Position numbers: made by a program
Shown: one piece after another, positions 19,301-28,300 of the stretch
How positions within the stretch are numbered: position 1 is the first letter of the stretch
Layout of the letters: each line of letters opens with the position of its first letter
Assembly: GCF_058153355.1 (NCBI RefSeq)
Contig: NZ_CM177019.1
Direction: 5' to 3' (one strand)
Length of the DNA: 64,000 nucleotides

Positions 19301-22300
19301 ACGGATATTCTGAGCACGGACCACGTAATATTCAATACATTATTTGCTGCCGGGTTTTTCGTGAATCAACGTAATATGTCAATAATTAATTCCACGCCAG
19401 TGCGTGTTATTGCCATTGTAGGATGTGATGGTTCAGGTAAATCGACCCTCACGGCAAGCCTGGTAAATGAACTGGCAGCAACAATGCCAACAGAACACAT
19501 TTATCTCGGGCAATCGTCCGGGCGAATTGGCGAATGGATTTCACAGCTCCCTGTTATTGGCGCACCTTTTGGGCGTTATCTGCGAAGTAAAGCGGCACAT
19601 GTGCACGAAAAGCCCTCCACACCGCCTGGCAATATTACTGCGCTGGTTATCTATCTGCTTTCCTGCTGGCGGGCGTATAAGTTTCGCAAAATGTTGTGTA
19701 AAAGCCAGCAAGGCTATCTGCTCATCACCGACCGCTACCCGCAGGTTGAAGTGCCGGGTTTTCGCTTTGATGGCCCGCAACTGGCAAAAAACACGGGCGG
19801 TAACGGCTGGATAAAAATGTTAAGACAGCGCGAGCTCAAACTTTACCAATGGATGGCGTCTTATTTGCCCGTATTGTTGATTCGTCTTGGCATTGATGAA
19901 CAAACCGCGTTTGCGCGTAAACCTGACCACCAACTGGCGGCGTTACAGGAAAAAATCGCTGTTACGCCGCAACTGACATTCAATGGCGCAAAGATCCTTG
20001 AACTGGATGGTCGGCAACCAGCCGATGAAATTCTGCAAGCGTCACTACGCGCAATTCACGCCGCGCTTTCCTGATCACCAAATGGATAGGGGATGATTTA
20101 ACGAATGGATGCACTACAAACACAAACTGTTAATAGTACAACCGCGCCGCAGCCCAACTACATTTCGGGGCTGATTGCGGTGGTCGGGTGTGATGGCACC
20201 GGTAAATCCACACTGACCACTGACCTGGTGAAATCGCTGCAACAACACTGGCAAACCGAGCGCCGCTATCTGGGGCTGCTCTCCGGCGAAGACGGCGACA
20301 AAATCAAACGGTTGCCGCTCGTTGGCGTCTGGCTGGAACGGCGACTGGCGGCCAAATCCTCGAAAACCCAAAGCATGAAAACCAAATCTCCGGCGCTATG
20401 GGCGGCGGTGATTATGTACTGCTTCTCGCTGCGAAGAATGGCGAATCTACGCAAGGTTCAGCGACTGGCGCAAAGTGGCGTTCTGGTGGTCAGCGATCGC
20501 TTCCCGCAGGCTGAAATTTCGGGCTTTTATTATGACGGCCCGGGGATTGGCGTCGAGCGTGCGACCGGGAAAATCAGCATGTTTCTGGCACAGCGCGAAC
20601 GGCGTTTATACCAAAAAATGGCGCAATACCGTCCTGAATTAATTATTCGTTTGGGGATTGATATTGATACTGCCATCTCCCGCAAGCCTGACCATGACTA
20701 TGCCGAGCTGCAGGACAAAATCGGTGTCATGTCGACGATTGGCTATAACGGCACAAAAATTCTTGAGATTGATTCCAGAGCGCCCTACAGCGAAGTGCTG
20801 GAACAGGCACAGAAGGCGGTTTCTCTGGTTGCAATCGTTTCTGACCGCCGAAGTTTAACTTAAGGTTGGCGGGATACTTTTTACTATCAACGATAAGGTC
20901 AGGCTGAATTGGCGGGGTTTAACATCAAACATTGGTTTGCAGATGGCGCGTTTCGCACCATTATTCGCAATAGCGCCTGGTTAGGCTCCAGTAATGTCGT
21001 GAGCGCTTTGCTGGGTCTGTTGGCGCTCTCGTGTGCCGGTAAAGGGATGACGCCCGCCATGTTTGGCGTACTGGTGATTGTGCAATCGTACGCCAAGTCG
21101 ATCAGCGATTTTATTAAGTTTCAGACATGGCAGCTGGTGGTTCAGTACGGAACGCCAGCCTTGACCAATAATAATCCGCAGCAATTTCGCAATGTCGTCT
21201 CATTTTCCTTCTCGTTGGATATCGTTAGCGGCGCGGTGGCGATTGTCGGCGGCATTGCCTTACTCCCTTTTCTTTCCCATTCATTAGGTCTGGATGACCA
21301 AAGCTTTTGGCTGGCAGCGCTGTATTGCACGCTCATTCCTTCAATGGCTTCCTCCACACCGACCGGCATTCTGCGTGCGGTAGATCGCTTCGATTTGATT
21401 GCTGTACAGCAGGCGACGAAACCTTTTCTGCGCGCAGCGGGGAGCGTCGTAGCCTGGTATTTTGATTTTGGTTTTGCGGGTTTTGTTATTGCCTGGTACG
21501 CATCGAATCTGGTTGGCGGCACCATGTACTGGTGGTTTGCCGCGCGCGAATTACGCCGCAGAAATATCCATAACGCCTTCAAATTGAATCTGTTTGAGTC
21601 TGCCCGACACATTAAAGGCGCGTGGAGTTTTGTCTGGTCAACCAACATTGCCCACTCCATCTGGTCGGCACGTAACTCGTGCAGCACAGTGTTGGTGGGG
21701 ATCGTGTTAGGACCCGCTGCCGCCGGGTTATTTAAAATCGCCATGACATTCTTCGATGCCGCCGGAACGCCAGCGGGTTTACTGGGCAAAAGTTTTTACC
21801 CAGAGGTGATGCGTTTAGATCCGCGCACCACCAGACCGTGGTTGTTAGGCGTGAAGTCCGGTTTACTGGCGGGCGGAATCGGTATTCTGGTGGCGCTCGC
21901 GGTGTTGATCGTCGGCAAGCCGCTCATTTCGCTGGTGTTTGGCGTTAAGTATCTCGAAGCGTATGACCTGATTCAGGTGATGCTTGGCGCAATTGTGATT
22001 TCGATGCTGGGCTTCCCACAGGAGTCATTGCTATTGATGGCGGGAAAACAGCGCGCTTTTCTCGTGGCGCAAACCATCGCCTCAATCGGCTACATCGTAT
22101 TGCTGTTCATGTTCTGTCATCTGTTTGGCGTGCTGGGGGCTGCATTTGCTTACTTCGGTGGGCAATGTCTGGATGTGGTGCTCTCGTTAATTCCAACCTT
22201 AAAGGCATTTTTTCAGCGCCATTCCTTGCTTTATAACGCAGCCGGAGAGAAATCCTGATGATGAGAAAATATTTCCCGCTTGAGGCGAGCGAGCGTCTAT

Positions 22301-25300: not shown

Positions 25301-28300
25301 CTCGAATCCTACATTTATGCACGCAGTGCCACCATTGAAGACGACAAAACGTGGATCCTGCATGGTGTGAATCATAAAAAATGGCTGAATGGCAAAGAAA
25401 CGCTGGAAACATCTGATAATCTTGCCTGGCAATCGGCCTTCACCAGTATGAATCTTGAAGAGTTATCGATGCCGGGAAATACTTTTTCTGGCCGTCAACT
25501 TAATCATTACATCCATTATTTGCAGGAAACCGGACAACCCAGCAACGAATACCGCCTTGCACTGTGGGAAAAACTGGGACAACCCATCTTGACCCTGGCG
25601 ATGATTTTGCTGGCTGTGCCGTTTACCTTTAGTGCCCCGCGTTCGCCTGGGATGGGTAGCCGTCTCGCTGTAGGCGTCATCGTGGGCTTACTCACCTGGA
25701 TCAGCTATCAAATTATGGTCAATCTGGGATTGCTATTTGCGTTGAGCGCACCTGTTACCGCGCTCGGTTTACCGATAGCGTTTATGCTGGTGGCGTTGAG
25801 CCTGGTGTATTGGTATGACAGTCAACATTAAACCCGCCGTGGCGCAGTACCACAGCGGGCTCACATTACTGCTTCAGAGTAGCAAATGCCTGAATGATGG
25901 CATCGATTTGCTCACGAGTGTGGGCAGCGTTTACGCTACAGCGCAGCAGTGTGATGCCTGCAGGCGCGGCAGGTGGCAGGATAAGATTCACATAAACGCC
26001 CAGCGAAATAAGCTCGCGCCAGATGCGTAAACCTTCCTCTTTCGAACCGATTATTACTGGCACTACCGGGCTAATATGTGAACTTAACTCGTAACCCAGT
26101 TTTTGCAGACCGTCATACAGATGGTTGGCGTTATCCATCAGCTTTTGCCGCAACTCTGGTTGTGAGGCAATAGTTCTTAACGACGAGCGCACGGTCGCAA
26201 TGCAGGACGGAGAAGGAGAGGCGGTAAAAATATACGGGCGGCTGCCGTAGCGCAGCACTTCCATCGCTTCCGAACCGACAGCAAAACCGCCAATCGAGGC
26301 CAGACTTTTACTGAAAGTACCAACGATAATATCCACATCATCTTCAACGCCAACGGCTTCAGCCAGTCCGCGCCCCGTTGCGCCTAACACGCCAAACGAA
26401 TGCGCTTCATCGACAATCAAATAACCACCGAGACGACGTTTGATATCAACAATTTCCGCCAGCGGCGCAACGTCACCGAGCATACTGTAGATGCCTTCAA
26501 CGATGATAATCGCCTCTTTTGCCCGTTCACCGAGGCGAACCATGCGCCGTTCCAGATCTTTAGCATCGTTATGGCGGAAACGAATAATTTCCGCTCCACC
26601 GAGAGAACAGGCGTCATAAATACTGGCGTGGCTGTCGGCATCCAGTAACACTACGGCGTTATGGTCGGCAAGCGCGCTGATGACGCCTAAATTCGCGGTA
26701 TAACCGGTTGAAAAAACGATAGCGGAAGGGCGCTTGAAAAACTCGGCAATCTCTTTCTCTAACGCCAGATGCGGCGCATAACTGCCGTTTGCCATACGAG
26801 AACCGGTGGTGCCGGTGCCTTGGGCCGCTAACGCTGCCTGACCTTCGGCGATGGCATCATGATTGAAGGTTAAACCGAGATAATTATTGGTCCCGGCCAG
26901 GATCACGTTTTTATCGCCGATCCGGCCTTCGGTGGCGGAATACACTTCATCAATACAGGTACCAAACGGCGTTAACCCGTTGTCACTAAATTGCAGTCGC
27001 TCGCCAGCAAGGCGCGCATATTTATCGTATAGCCCCATTATTTATTCTCCAGCCATGGAAGTAGAGTTTCCATTAATTGCGCAGGGGTTTTGACATCCAG
27101 CAGAATATTAATAGGAATGGAAATATCGAATCTGTCTTCCAGCATCATTAAGAGATCCATCACTTTGATCGACTCCAGGCCAAGATCGTTGACGAGATCG
27201 CTGTCGGGCTTAATTTCCACACCGTTTTCGACCAAATCCTGTAAACAGGAAAGGATGTAATCCATTACTATTTCACGATTTACCATAGAAACGTTAACAC
27301 ACCTTTAAACAAGACAATCAAAATAGCCCGCTGCGTAATGCGTGTTCTAGGCTAATCCCGGGAAACCAATTAATATCTTCAGAAATACGGTTATTACTTG
27401 CTGACCAGTCGGCGTGGGTTAATTCACGGATTTTCGAGCGGGTCAGCATAGGTTCTTTACCTGCCAGGCGGCTCAACGTGGTACTGATATCCGCAAGGCA
27501 GGTGAGTACCGACAGAGGAATACCAACCATTCGAACGGAACCGCAACGGGCGTCGGCGGCAAGTTGCTGTACGCGTTGCCAGTCATAGCCGCCGGCGACG
27601 CCATCGCATAATTCATAGGTTTGCGTCTGTACAGTTTCGGCGCTTAACCACTGCCCCACGGCTTGCGCGAAATCGGTGACGTGCAGGAAAGAGAGCTGTG
27701 TATCTGGCGCACCAAGTCGTGGCAGCAGGCCGCGCAGCATCCAGTCAAACAGCGGTTTTAACTCTTTATCGCCGGGACCATACACGGCTGTCGGGCGAAA
27801 AATGCCCAGCGTAATTTCGTCAGCCATTGCGGTCAGTCGTTGTTCGGCGACGTGTTTGGAATTTGCGTACCAGGAGAGTTCGGGATGGCGCGCCGCCAGC
27901 GAAGAGATAAACAGAAAACGTTGGCAAAAGCCGCTCTCTTTTGCCGCTTGCATCAGGCGCAGGCTGCCGTCAACGTTACAGCGGGTAAAAATCTCTTCTT
28001 TGTGTCCGCGCACTTGCCCGGCGCAATGGACCACCGCGCTGGCTCCGGCAACCAGTTCCCTAAGCGAATGTGTATCTTCCAGCGAACCGCGCACCCAGAT
28101 GAGATTATCATTGACGTGAGCGCGGGCAGTACGCGTCAATGCGCGAACGTGAAAGCCGCGGACGAGCAGGTTATCGATAATATATTTACCGATAAACCCG
28201 GTAGCGCCCGTCACCGCGACAGTTTGATTCATGCCATGGATTCCTGCACATGAAGGCTTGCAGCATAACGTTTTTTCGCTTCCGCACGGGCAGGCTTGCC

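What the first reader, a model, noticed from the sequence alone, without database searches (positions are those of the whole stretch)
20909..25831. LptF/LptG-like permease pair, flippase-like YghQ and a secreted protein: probable dedicated export route for the lipid
A plus-strand gene string with overlapping stops and starts encodes a MOP-flippase-like membrane protein, a hypothetical protein, a signal-peptide protein and two YjgP/YjgQ-family permeases that duplicate the architecture of the essential LPS transporter LptFG. This converges on the lipid operon. A second Lpt-like extractor beside an amino-lipid synthesis module suggests transport of a non-LPS lipid to the outer membrane.
Basis: inference. 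Interest (0 to 1): 0.6.

Follow-up and report, generated by a model that had tools for sequence, protein, structure and literature searches.

The report
E. coli sphingolipid-locus LptF2/LptG2 exporter genes
This stretch of an E. coli chromosome carries a second, non-essential copy of the lipopolysaccharide-extractor permeases LptF/LptG, plus a flippase and two helper proteins, placed beside sphingolipid-synthesis genes; it most likely exports that sphingolipid, an idea already published for Caulobacter but never tested in E. coli.

Summary
Window 20909-25831 holds five co-directional genes:
- full-length YghQ, a MOP/Wzx-type flippase;
- a 274-aa protein without any Pfam or NCBIfam family;
- a signal-peptide protein of the YtfJ family;
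- an LptF paralog;
- an LptG paralog, whose true start is the ATG at 24752.

They converge on spt-acpR-cerR-aasR, and yghO follows. This is the E. coli yghT-yghO sphingolipid locus. It is present in about 76% of complete E. coli genomes and conserved as a block across Enterobacterales.

Both permeases pass the curated LptF/LptG model cut-offs and keep the Glu that couples to LptB. LptG2 has lost the lysines that hold the lipid A phosphates.

I sampled 80 spt loci from many phyla. In 29 of the 36 with full flanks, an LptF/G-like gene lies within 10 kb, and none has its own LptB-like ATPase.

It is not new: the idea was proposed in 2024 (PMC11324152), tested in Caulobacter in a 2026 preprint, and that preprint draws the E. 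coli UTI89 locus.

Possibly new here:
- the 274-aa protein has a CHAD-like fold, the fold that binds polyphosphate;
- YtfJ2 is a cysteine-free thioredoxin-like protein;
- the E. coli pair belongs to a broad spt-linked clade that excludes the Caulobacter pair.

The parts
18495..19187 (-). yghT: P-loop protein distantly like thymidylate kinase; one of three paralogs. Outside the finding's coordinates but part of the conserved block.
   Evidence: Weak dTMP-kinase hits in NCBIfam. A family profile finds only thymidylate kinases in PDB, E about 1e-6. Co-conserved with the block in Enterobacterales and in Luteibacter and Dyella.
19361..20074 (+). yghS: second P-loop kinase-like paralog.
20105..20863 (+). 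yghR: third P-loop kinase-like paralog. It is not an ABC ATPase.
   Evidence: In one search, ABC_tran reaches only E>=4e-3 and never passes 0.001 in any of the 24 family members.
20909..22258 (+). Full-length yghQ: polytopic inner-membrane protein of the MOP/Wzx (Polysacc_synt) flippase superfamily; the candidate flippase for the lipid.
   Evidence: PF01943 E 2.7e-8 and PF13440. Five or more long hydrophobic stretches. 139 bits to the ORF that occupies the CC_1166 flippase position in a Caulobacter MAG locus. dN/dS 0.03.
22258..23082 (+). 274-aa soluble all-helical protein with a CHAD-like fold (two helical bundles). No signal peptide in E. coli.
23091..23654 (+). ytfJ2: secreted YtfJ-family protein with a thioredoxin/TlpA-like fold and no cysteine. 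Restricted to Enterobacterales versions of the locus.
23685..24755 (+). lptF2: LptF paralog (356 aa), three plus two-to-three hydrophobic segments around a periplasmic domain of about 170 aa.
   Evidence: TIGR04407 at 320 bits against a 230 cut-off, covering model positions 2-346 of 347. Full-length matches to solved LptF chains. 29% identity to E. coli LptF, with E84 kept as E85 and R33 kept as R34.
24752..25831 (+). lptG2: LptG paralog (359 aa from ATG 24752). Its start overlaps the lptF2 stop by 4 nt.
   Evidence: TIGR04408 at 306 bits against a 240 cut-off. Matches E. coli LptG 6mhu_G at E 4e-41 over residues 3-351. 28% identity, with E88 kept as E85. K34, K40, K41 and R133 are replaced by N, D, D and L.
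25833..25859 (.). Hairpin between the convergent stop codons of lptG2 and spt; a possible two-way terminator.
   Evidence: RNA fold -15.7 kcal/mol, z -3.15. No T-run, and the terminator scan did not call it.
25866..27038 (-). spt: serine palmitoyltransferase.
   Evidence: 378 bits to the solved Sphingomonas SPT structure 2jg2. RefSeq names it spt. The BL21 enzyme was assayed in PMC9386255.
27038..27286 (-). acpR: dedicated acyl carrier protein.
   Evidence: PMC9386255
27318..28232 (-). cerR-like NAD-dependent epimerase/dehydratase-family reductase.
   Evidence: named epi/ECD_02852 in PMC9386255
28229..29947 (-). aasR: acyl-AcpR synthetase (fatty acyl-AMP ligase).
   Evidence: PMC9386255
30311..31453 (+). 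yghO: homologue of the bacterial ceramide synthase / N-acyltransferase (CC_1154).
   Evidence: No Pfam hit. Present in 57 of 80 spt loci. 328 bits to the ORF next to lptG2 in the Caulobacter MAG locus. Equated with aca/CC_1154 in PMC9386255.

Best explanation
The five genes are the transport half of the E. coli sphingolipid locus.

Proposed pathway:
1. A (dihydro)ceramide-type lipid is made on the cytoplasmic side by AasR, AcpR, Spt, the CerR-like reductase and YghO.
2. It may be modified by the three P-loop kinase-like proteins YghT/S/R.
3. The MOP-family protein YghQ flips it across the inner membrane.
4. An LptF2-LptG2 heterodimer extracts it from the outer leaflet. This heterodimer has the architecture of the LPS extractor LptFG and borrows the cell's only LptB ATPase through conserved coupling-helix glutamates.
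5. The lipid is passed towards the outer membrane, presumably along the ordinary LptC/LptA/LptDE bridge.

What is shown and what is inferred:
- Shown: the gene identities, the conserved linkage to spt, the retained Glu, the lost LPS contacts and purifying selection.
- Shown only for homologues: enzyme activity of BL21 Spt/AcpR/AasR; the genetic and pull-down results for Caulobacter LptF2/G2.
- Inferred: the substrate, the use of LptB, the direction of transport, and the roles of YghQ, the CHAD-like protein and YtfJ2.
For: - Both permeases exceed the curated LptF/LptG cut-offs and align full-length to solved LptF/LptG.
- The coupling Glu is kept in 48 of 48 F-like and 43 of 44 G-like spt-linked proteins.
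- The LPS phosphate and core contacts on LptG (K34, K40, K41, R133; roles from PMC6744409) are replaced. K34 is never K or R, and K40 is D or E in 42 of 44.
- Of 36 spt loci with at least 9 kb on both sides, 29 carry LptF/G-like genes within 10 kb, and 41 of 80 loci have an adjacent full-length F+G pair.
- All 46 non-alphaproteobacterial spt-linked LptF-like proteins score higher against this LptF2 than against housekeeping E. coli or P. aeruginosa LptF. A Pseudomonas spt-linked copy scores 414 against LptF2 and 103 against PaLptF. In an NJ tree the housekeeping proteins fall outside the spt-linked clade.
- There is no ABC ATPase in the window and no dedicated LptB-like gene in the 80 loci.
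- The block yghT-yghS-yghR-yghQ-CHADlike-ytfJ-lptF2-lptG2 stays next to the spt operon in Serratia, Hafnia, Erwinia and more than 10 other genera, even where the surrounding genes differ.
- The exporter pair occurs in 4105 of 5426 complete E. coli genomes and the synthesis block in 4067, at 80% coverage or more.
- dN/dS is 0.03-0.09.
- Published support: 10.64898/2026.04.12.717747, PMC11324152 and PMC9386255.
Against: - No experiment exists on the E. coli proteins, and no native E. coli sphingolipid is reported in the papers I could search.
- The characterised Caulobacter pair is only remotely similar: 29-50 bits for a Caulobacter MAG pair. In my tree it falls outside both the housekeeping and the spt-linked clades, so function is transferred by context rather than by orthology.
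- For distant phyla the preference for LptF2 over P. aeruginosa LptF is small (for example 179 against 168 bits). The LptG-like proteins do not discriminate between LptG2 and LptG: 10 of 44 score slightly higher against E. coli LptG.
- The tree is neighbour-joining without bootstrap. It includes only two housekeeping LptF and one LptG.
- Seven of the 36 fully flanked spt loci lack a nearby pair.
- I made no 3-D model of LptF2/G2.
Confidence: 0.72

Rival explanations
1. LptF2G2 is a spare or condition-specific LPS extractor (for a modified LPS, for instance), and its position beside spt is incidental in E. coli.
For: RefSeq and the NCBIfam 'equivalog' models name the two proteins LPS export permeases LptF/LptG. 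LptF R33 and an R/K at LptG R136 are retained.
Against: The pair is linked to spt in 29 of 36 loci from many phyla. The lipid A phosphate and core contacts K34, K40, K41 and R133 of LptG are replaced, mostly by acidic or neutral residues, and K34E in LptG is lethal for LPS transport (PMC6744409). The pair is absent from about 24% of E. coli genomes, while LptFG is essential. It shares only 28-29% identity with LptF/G.
Confidence: 0.08
2. The pair exports a different product of the left-hand genes, such as a polyprenol-linked glycan or phospho-compound handled by the Wzx-like YghQ, the kinase-like YghT/S/R and the CHAD-like protein. The substrate is then not the ceramide itself.
For: YghQ belongs to the family of undecaprenyl-linked oligosaccharide flippases. 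YghT/S/R, YghQ and the CHAD-like protein occur in Luteibacter and Dyella spt loci without a nearby LptF/G pair. A distant CHAD-like homologue sits beside a nucleotidyltransferase and a Polysacc_synt gene, and no spt is called in the 17 kb held.
Against: In Luteibacter, yghQ and the CHAD-like gene lie immediately downstream of spt on the same strand. LptF/G pairs accompany spt in many loci that lack YghQ, the kinases and the CHAD-like gene. No glycosyltransferase is present in the E. coli block.
Confidence: 0.1
3. The locus is largely silent in E. coli. The permeases are kept only as insurance against toxic build-up when the lipid is occasionally made, or they act by titrating LptB. They would then have little role as a real export route.
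For: K-12 and about a quarter of strains lack the locus. The papers I found report no native sphingolipid. One strain (SW07091) has lost the stretch from the CHAD-like gene to lptG2 and also has a truncated aasR. This fits the Caulobacter result that the exporter is dispensable only when synthesis is off.
Against: Strong purifying selection acts on all five genes. The whole block is conserved across many enterobacterial genera.
Confidence: 0.1

Closest known systems
Caulobacter crescentus LptF2/LptG2 (CCNA_01214/CCNA_01213; CC_1156/CC_1155): the sphingolipid-locus paralogs of the LPS extractor (PMC11324152; bioRxiv 10.64898/2026.04.12.717747)
   Same: An adjacent LptF-like and LptG-like gene pair lies inside the spt/ceramide locus. 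The locus has no ATPase gene of its own. A Polysacc_synt-type flippase gene sits in the same locus. The preprint's Figure 2B draws the E. coli UTI89 locus as homologous.
   Different: Similarity is very low: 29-50 bits to the pair of a Caulobacter MAG. The alphaproteobacterial pairs fall outside the clade that holds the E. coli pair. E. coli has no LptC2 and none of the Cpg head-group genes (lipid kinase, nucleotidyltransferases, phosphoesterase) seen in Caulobacter and many other spt loci. Instead it has YghT/S/R, a CHAD-like protein and YtfJ2. The E. coli proteins are untested.
E. coli LptB2FG(C), the essential LPS extractor (PDB 6MHU, 6MI7, 6S8H)
   Same: Same family models above cut-off, same length and same hydropathy plan, with a periplasmic domain between hydrophobic segments 3 and 4. 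The coupling-helix Glu is conserved, and the two genes overlap at stop and start.
   Different: Identity is 28-29%. The pair is accessory rather than essential, being present in 76% of genomes. LptG K34/K40/K41/R133 are replaced by N/D/D/L. The pair is linked to spt instead of the housekeeping context.
MsbA-like half-transporters in other spt loci, and the CC_1166 flippase
   Same: A flippase gene accompanies the LptF/G pair. In 28 loci it is a fused ABC exporter of about 575 aa with MsbA-type hits. In the Caulobacter MAG it is a YghQ homologue (139 bits).
   Different: Enterobacterales use the MOP/Wzx-type YghQ, not an ABC flippase. Neither flippase type has been tested with sphingolipid.
CHAD domains (polyphosphate-binding modules; PDB 6QV5, 3E0S, 6RN5; bioRxiv 10.1101/567040)
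   Different: Pfam CHAD does not match. The Foldseek E-value is not significant. Identity is 9-18%. Polyphosphate binding is untested, and the genomic context is lipid synthesis, not polyphosphate metabolism.
YtfJ / HI0045 family (TIGR01626, PF09695), uncharacterised periplasmic proteins
   Same: Scores above the curated cut-off, has a signal peptide and is of the same length.
   Different: This is a second, locus-specific copy found only in Enterobacterales sphingolipid loci. The family has no known function and no solved structure detectable by sequence.

Membership tests
LptF/LptG permease family (PF03739; TIGR04407/TIGR04408) | Full-length match to the family profile above the curated cut-off | tested here: met
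   LptF2 scores 320 bits (cut-off 230) and LptG2 306 bits (cut-off 240); both cover nearly the whole model. PF03739 is precomputed for the orthologs.
LptF/LptG permease family (PF03739; TIGR04407/TIGR04408) | Six-helix membrane domain with a periplasmic beta-jellyroll domain between helices 3 and 4 | tested here: inconclusive
   Hydropathy shows three N-terminal and two to three C-terminal hydrophobic segments around a hydrophilic insert of about 170 aa. Alignments to solved chains run through that insert.
LptF/LptG permease family (PF03739; TIGR04407/TIGR04408) | Coupling-helix glutamate that contacts LptB (LptF E84, LptG E88) | tested here: met
   E85 in both proteins. Conserved in 48 of 48 and 43 of 44 spt-linked homologues. 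The assignment of E84/E88 to LptB coupling rests on my knowledge of mBio 2016 (PMC5082905, listed), which I did not read here.
LPS exporter LptFG in the strict sense (the 'equivalog' meaning of the NCBI name) | Basic residues that bind the lipid A phosphates and inner core (LptG K34, K40, K41, K62, R133, R136; LptF R33, K317) | tested here: not met
   LptG2 has N31, D37, D38, L130 and K133. LptF2 keeps R34. The residue roles come from PMC6744409.
LPS exporter LptFG in the strict sense (the 'equivalog' meaning of the NCBI name) | Essential single-copy core gene pair | tested here: not met
   Present in 4105 of 5426 complete E. coli genomes and deleted in some strains. That the housekeeping lptFG lies elsewhere in the chromosome is my own knowledge; it is not in this window.
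Sphingolipid-locus LptF2/LptG2 (as defined in Caulobacter) | Encoded within or next to the spt/ceramide synthesis locus | tested here: met
   34 nt from spt in the window. Linkage holds in 29 of 36 fully flanked spt loci.
Sphingolipid-locus LptF2/LptG2 (as defined in Caulobacter) | Orthology with CCNA_01214/CCNA_01213 | tested here: inconclusive
   Only 29-50 bits to the syntenic pair of a Caulobacter MAG. The NJ tree puts the alphaproteobacterial pairs outside the clade of the E. coli pair, but it has no bootstrap and includes no alphaproteobacterial housekeeping LptFG.
Sphingolipid-locus LptF2/LptG2 (as defined in Caulobacter) | No cognate ATPase in the locus; works with the housekeeping LptB | tested here: inconclusive
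   Absence of an ABC ATPase is shown for the window and for the 80 loci, apart from MsbA-like fused exporters. Binding to LptB cannot be tested with these tools.
Sphingolipid-locus LptF2/LptG2 (as defined in Caulobacter) | Deletion tolerated only when the (anionic) sphingolipid is not made | not testable with these tools
   The only hint is one E. coli strain that lacks the exporter and also has a truncated aasR.
MOP (Wzx/MurJ/MATE) flippase superfamily, for YghQ | Profile match and polytopic membrane protein of about 450 aa | tested here: met
   PF01943 E 2.7e-8 and PF13440 E 1.3e-7. Multiple long hydrophobic stretches. The NCBIfam MOP model scores only 34 bits against a 273 cut-off, so this is superfamily membership only.
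CHAD domain (PF05235), for the 274-aa protein | Match to the Pfam CHAD profile | tested here: not met
   No CHAD hit in Pfam-A.
CHAD domain (PF05235), for the 274-aa protein | Two helical bundles with conserved basic patches (the CHAD fold) | tested here: inconclusive
YtfJ_HI0045 family (TIGR01626) | Profile match above cut-off, secreted, about 185 aa | tested here: met
   209 bits against a 151 cut-off. Signal peptide in all 18 orthologs.

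The most novel reading that the evidence does not exclude
The enterobacterial locus is a distinct variant of bacterial sphingolipid biology. It replaces the Caulobacter-type head-group genes (lipid kinase, nucleotidyltransferases, phosphoesterase) and the MsbA-like flippase. In their place are three thymidylate-kinase-like P-loop proteins (YghT/S/R), a CHAD-like protein with the polyphosphate-binding fold, a Wzx-type flippase and a cysteine-free thioredoxin-like periplasmic protein (YtfJ2). Three quarters of E. coli strains would then make and export to their surface a so far undescribed, probably phosphorylated, sphingolipid through LptF2G2 and the shared LptB.
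Probability: 0.25. Interest if true: 0.7.

Novelty: already known. Interest (0 to 1): 0.38.

Why it matters
E. coli is the reference organism for outer-membrane biogenesis, yet its textbook lipid list has no sphingolipid, and K-12 has lost this locus. About 76% of complete E. coli genomes carry an intact synthesis-plus-export module under purifying selection. The same holds for many other Enterobacterales, including Citrobacter, Serratia, Hafnia and Erwinia.

If the module is active, three things follow:
- The Lpt machine carries a second cargo in these bacteria.
- LptB is shared between two extractors, which matters for LptB- and Lpt-targeting antibiotics.
- The cell surface of commensal and pathogenic strains contains a lipid class that can signal to the host.

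The general idea is already published, so the value here is confirmation, the wide phylogenetic test of the spt-LptFG linkage, and fold assignments for two unannotated genes that point to phosphate chemistry on the head group.

Tried and rejected
- I searched the 5.8-billion-protein collection with AcpR, hoping to reach Caulobacter. It returned only near-identical E. coli and E. albertii proteins and was wasted.
- The same search with LptF2 listed only Enterobacterales at 63% identity or more.
- I tested whether the 274-aa protein is the homologue of Caulobacter CC_1167, CC_1157 or CC_1153. It is not: these are described as glycerophosphotransferase-like, HIT and CofC-like.
- I tested whether YghT/S/R could be the missing ATPase for LptF2G2, or PPK2-type polyphosphate kinases. 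They are neither. Outside the P-loop there is no ABC signature, and the closest solved relatives are thymidylate kinases at E about 1e-6. No PPK2 appears among the 60 best PDB matches.
- I looked for LptC- or LptA-like genes in the 80 loci, using E. coli LptC/LptA sequences recalled from memory as phmmer probes. Nothing was found. This is a weak negative, because those probes were not verified and the family is divergent.
- The promoter and terminator scans of 18.4-31.6 kb gave no more hits than shuffled sequence.
- Foldseek against PDB did not give a significant match for the CHAD-like model.
- Literature searches for a native E. coli sphingolipid or for YtfJ function found nothing useful.

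Full report
**What is in the sequence.**
The window is an E. coli chromosome segment running from hyb through gss, pitB, yghT and glc to sslE, gsp and speC. Between 20909 and 25831 five plus-strand genes follow each other:
- a 449-aa polytopic membrane protein;
- a 274-aa soluble protein;
- a 187-aa protein with an N-terminal signal segment;
- two permeases, of 356 and 359 aa.

Two junctions overlap: TGATG at 22256-22260 and ATGA at 24752-24755. The other two have gaps of 8 and 30 nt. The ORF list starts the last gene at GTG 24671. RefSeq, and the alignment to LptG, use ATG 24752.

The string ends 34 nt from the stop codon of a minus-strand operon. A stable hairpin lies between them (25833-25859, -15.7 kcal/mol, z -3.15).

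**The two permeases.**
- LptF2 hits the curated LptF model TIGR04407 at 320 bits (cut-off 230). LptG2 hits TIGR04408 at 306 bits (cut-off 240). Each scores far lower on the other model.
- Both align over nearly their whole length to solved LptF and LptG chains from E. coli, Shigella, Enterobacter, Klebsiella, Vibrio, Pseudomonas and Acinetobacter, with E between 1e-21 and 1e-41.
- Identity to E. coli LptF is 29% and to LptG 28%. The LptF reference sequence was verified against 6mhu_F, and the LptG reference agrees with the 6mhu_G alignment.
- The coupling-helix glutamates (LptF E84, LptG E88) are conserved as E85 in both proteins.
- The LPS contacts are not conserved. In the LPS-bound cryo-EM structure, LptG K34, K62, R133 and R136 and LptF R33 bind the 1'-phosphate. 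LptG K40 and LptF K317 bind the 4'-phosphate. LptG K41 touches the inner core. K34E and R136E are lethal (PMC6744409).
- LptG2 has N, D, D and L at the positions of K34, K40, K41 and R133, and K at R136. LptF2 keeps R33.

So the machine and its link to the ATPase look conserved, while the LPS-specific part of the binding site does not.

**The neighbours.**
The convergent operon encodes Spt, an acyl carrier protein, an NAD-dependent reductase and a fatty acyl-AMP ligase; yghO follows. Spt gives 378 bits to the solved Sphingomonas serine palmitoyltransferase.

The E. coli BL21(DE3) versions of Spt, AcpR and AasR have been expressed, and together they make 3-oxo-sphinganine. That paper equates ECD_02852 with the keto-sphinganine reductase and yghO (ECD_02850) with the N-acyltransferase of ceramide synthesis (PMC9386255). 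The 'amino-lipid module' is therefore a sphingolipid module.

**Distribution in E. coli and Enterobacterales.**
- The lptF2-lptG2 pair is present at 80% coverage or more in 4105 of 5426 complete E. coli genomes. The synthesis operon is present in 4067.
- dN/dS between this window and a divergent E. coli lineage is 0.03-0.09 for all five genes.
- In Serratia, Hafnia, Erwinia and more than ten other enterobacterial genera, the block yghT(-), yghS, yghR, yghQ, 274-aa gene, ytfJ, lptF2, lptG2 stays intact and next to aasR-cerR-acpR-spt. This holds although its orientation relative to that operon and the flanking genes differ.

**An independent test of the linkage.**
I scanned one genome per species (GTDB) with an alignment of serine palmitoyltransferases. 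The 80 best loci had 52-97% identity and came from Enterobacterales, Pseudomonas, Xanthomonadales, other Gamma- and Betaproteobacteria, Nitrospirota, Desulfobacterota, Gemmatimonadota, Methylomirabilota and two Alphaproteobacteria. Six-frame ORFs were then searched with the window's proteins.

1. **Frequency of linkage.** LptF/G-like ORFs lie within the stored flanks in 47 of 80 loci. In 41 loci they form an adjacent full-length F+G pair. Among the 36 loci with at least 9 kb on both sides of spt, 29 have them.
2. **Similarity to LptF2.** All 46 non-alphaproteobacterial LptF-like proteins score higher against the window's LptF2 (154-750 bits) than against E. coli LptF (62-128) or P. aeruginosa LptF (90-168). 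The spt-linked copies in Pseudomonas score 404-414 against LptF2 and about 100 against Pseudomonas's own LptF.
3. **Tree.** In a neighbour-joining tree the housekeeping proteins fall outside the spt-linked clade, in both the F and the G halves. The pairs from a Caulobacter MAG and from Pelagibius branch outside both groups.
4. **Conserved signature.** The coupling Glu is kept in 48 of 48 F-like and 43 of 44 G-like proteins. LptG K34 is never K or R, and K40 is D or E in 42 of 44.

Limits of this test:
- For the most distant phyla the margin over P. aeruginosa LptF is small.
- The G-like proteins do not discriminate between LptG2 and LptG.
- The tree has no bootstrap and few housekeeping sequences.

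**The ATPase question.**
The window contains no ABC ATPase. In the 80 loci the only ABC domains near the genes are fused MsbA-type half-transporters of about 575 aa, in 28 loci. Many of these sit directly after the LptF/G pair, with best NCBIfam hits to HepA, CydD and MsbA.

The two stand-alone ATPases found lie in unrelated flanking genes. One is a 353-aa protein beside sugar-transporter genes in the Serratia locus. The other is a 247-aa ORF at the far end of L030.

YghT/S/R are P-loop proteins whose only detectable relatives are thymidylate kinases. They are not ABC ATPases. This agrees with the Caulobacter finding that LptF2 and LptG2 co-purify with the single LptB.

**The other three genes of the finding.**
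- **YghQ** matches Pfam Polysacc_synt, the Wzx/MOP superfamily. It gives 139 bits to the ORF that sits upstream of aasR in the Caulobacter MAG, the place of the proposed flippase CC_1166. Where Enterobacterales have YghQ, most other spt loci have the MsbA-like exporter. Both fit a flip-then-extract scheme.

**Most likely mechanism.**
Ceramide is made in the cytoplasm and perhaps phosphorylated. YghQ flips it. LptF2G2 extracts it from the periplasmic leaflet using LptB, and it is handed on to the Lpt bridge.

Only the gene identities, the conservation, the residue pattern and the selection are shown here. The rest is inference from context and from Caulobacter. There, lptF2, lptG2 and lptC2 can be deleted only in spt or cpgB mutants, and LptF2/G2 bind each other and LptB.

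**Comparison with what is known, and novelty.**
- The 2024 PLoS Pathogens paper already names CC_1156/CC_1155 LptF2/LptG2 and proposes selective sphingolipid transport together with the CC_1166 flippase.
- The 2026 preprint tests this and shows the E. coli UTI89 locus as homologous in its Figure 2B. It notes that lptF2 and lptG2 occur in many alpha- and gammaproteobacterial sphingolipid loci.

The finding is thus already known as a hypothesis, with experimental backing in another organism. I did not find the following in those papers:
- the quantified linkage across phyla;
- the clade-wide loss of the LptG lysines with retention of the coupling Glu;
- the remoteness of the Caulobacter pair from the E. 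coli pair;
- the CHAD-like and thioredoxin-like folds of the two unannotated genes;
- the swap between MsbA-like and Wzx-like flippases.

These observations raise the possibility that Enterobacterales make a different, still undescribed head group.

Noticed in passing
window 43128-44474 (-), within 41453-47466: An IS4-family transposase ORF (448 aa, NF033592 at 304 bits) sits in a 1.4-kb stretch that is absent from strain N96. It splits the sslE (lipoprotein metalloprotease) reading frame into 41453-43117 and 44593-47466.
   Followed up: partly
window 47468-48974: An IS621-like IS110-family element lies between sslE and pppA. Its transposase is at 47754-48734 (NF033542, 'RNA-guided transposase', 253 bits). 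It is flanked by 94-nt REP-like direct repeats at 47468-47561 and 48881-48974. In strain N96 the same element sits between hybG and yghU instead.
   Followed up: partly
window 18495-20863: Three paralogous P-loop proteins, YghT/S/R, are annotated 'dTMP kinase'. They resemble thymidylate kinases only weakly and have their own conserved motifs (D131-R132-x-P134 and R193-K194-P195-x-H197 are invariant; D196 is 90% or more conserved). They travel with spt loci in Enterobacterales, Luteibacter, Dyella, Pseudomonas and some MAGs. They are candidate head-group kinases of unknown substrate.
   Followed up: partly
L028-L088, e.g. L070:6777-8516: In 28 spt loci outside Enterobacterales, a fused ABC exporter of about 575 aa lies next to spt or directly after the LptF/G-like pair. 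Its best hits are HepA, CydD and MsbA. It appears to take the place of YghQ.
   Followed up: partly
window 23685-25831 vs L089:3201-5347: Synonymous divergence between two E. coli lineages differs six-fold between adjacent genes: dS is 0.05 in lptF2 and 0.31 in lptG2, and 0.26 in the CHAD-like gene against 0.08 in ytfJ2. This suggests recombination breakpoints inside the block.
   Followed up: no
L091 (E. coli SW07091) 5916-8843: One wastewater strain has lost the stretch from the 5' part of the CHAD-like gene to the last 65 nt of lptG2. The same strain has a truncated aasR, joined to a deleted type II secretion cluster. This is anecdotal co-loss of exporter and synthesis.
   Followed up: no
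proteins P0124, P0156, P0177, P0254, P0265; L003:10001-13259: The CHAD-like family includes a tandem duplication (564 aa), members with signal peptides, and C-terminal fusions to proteins of 976 and 1155 aa. One distant member sits beside an NTP_transf_3 nucleotidyltransferase and a Polysacc_synt flippase.
   Followed up: partly
proteins P0001, P0002, P0006: A few assemblies predict a 553-aa YtfJ-LptF fusion (PF09695+PF03739). This is consistent with read-through of the ytfJ2 stop codon across the in-frame 30-nt gap. Each of these protein clusters has a single member sequence, seen on one or two contigs, so the fusions are probably mutations or sequencing errors.
   Followed up: no
window 25833-25859: A stable hairpin lies exactly between the convergent stop codons of lptG2 and spt. 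It has no T-run on either side.
   Followed up: partly
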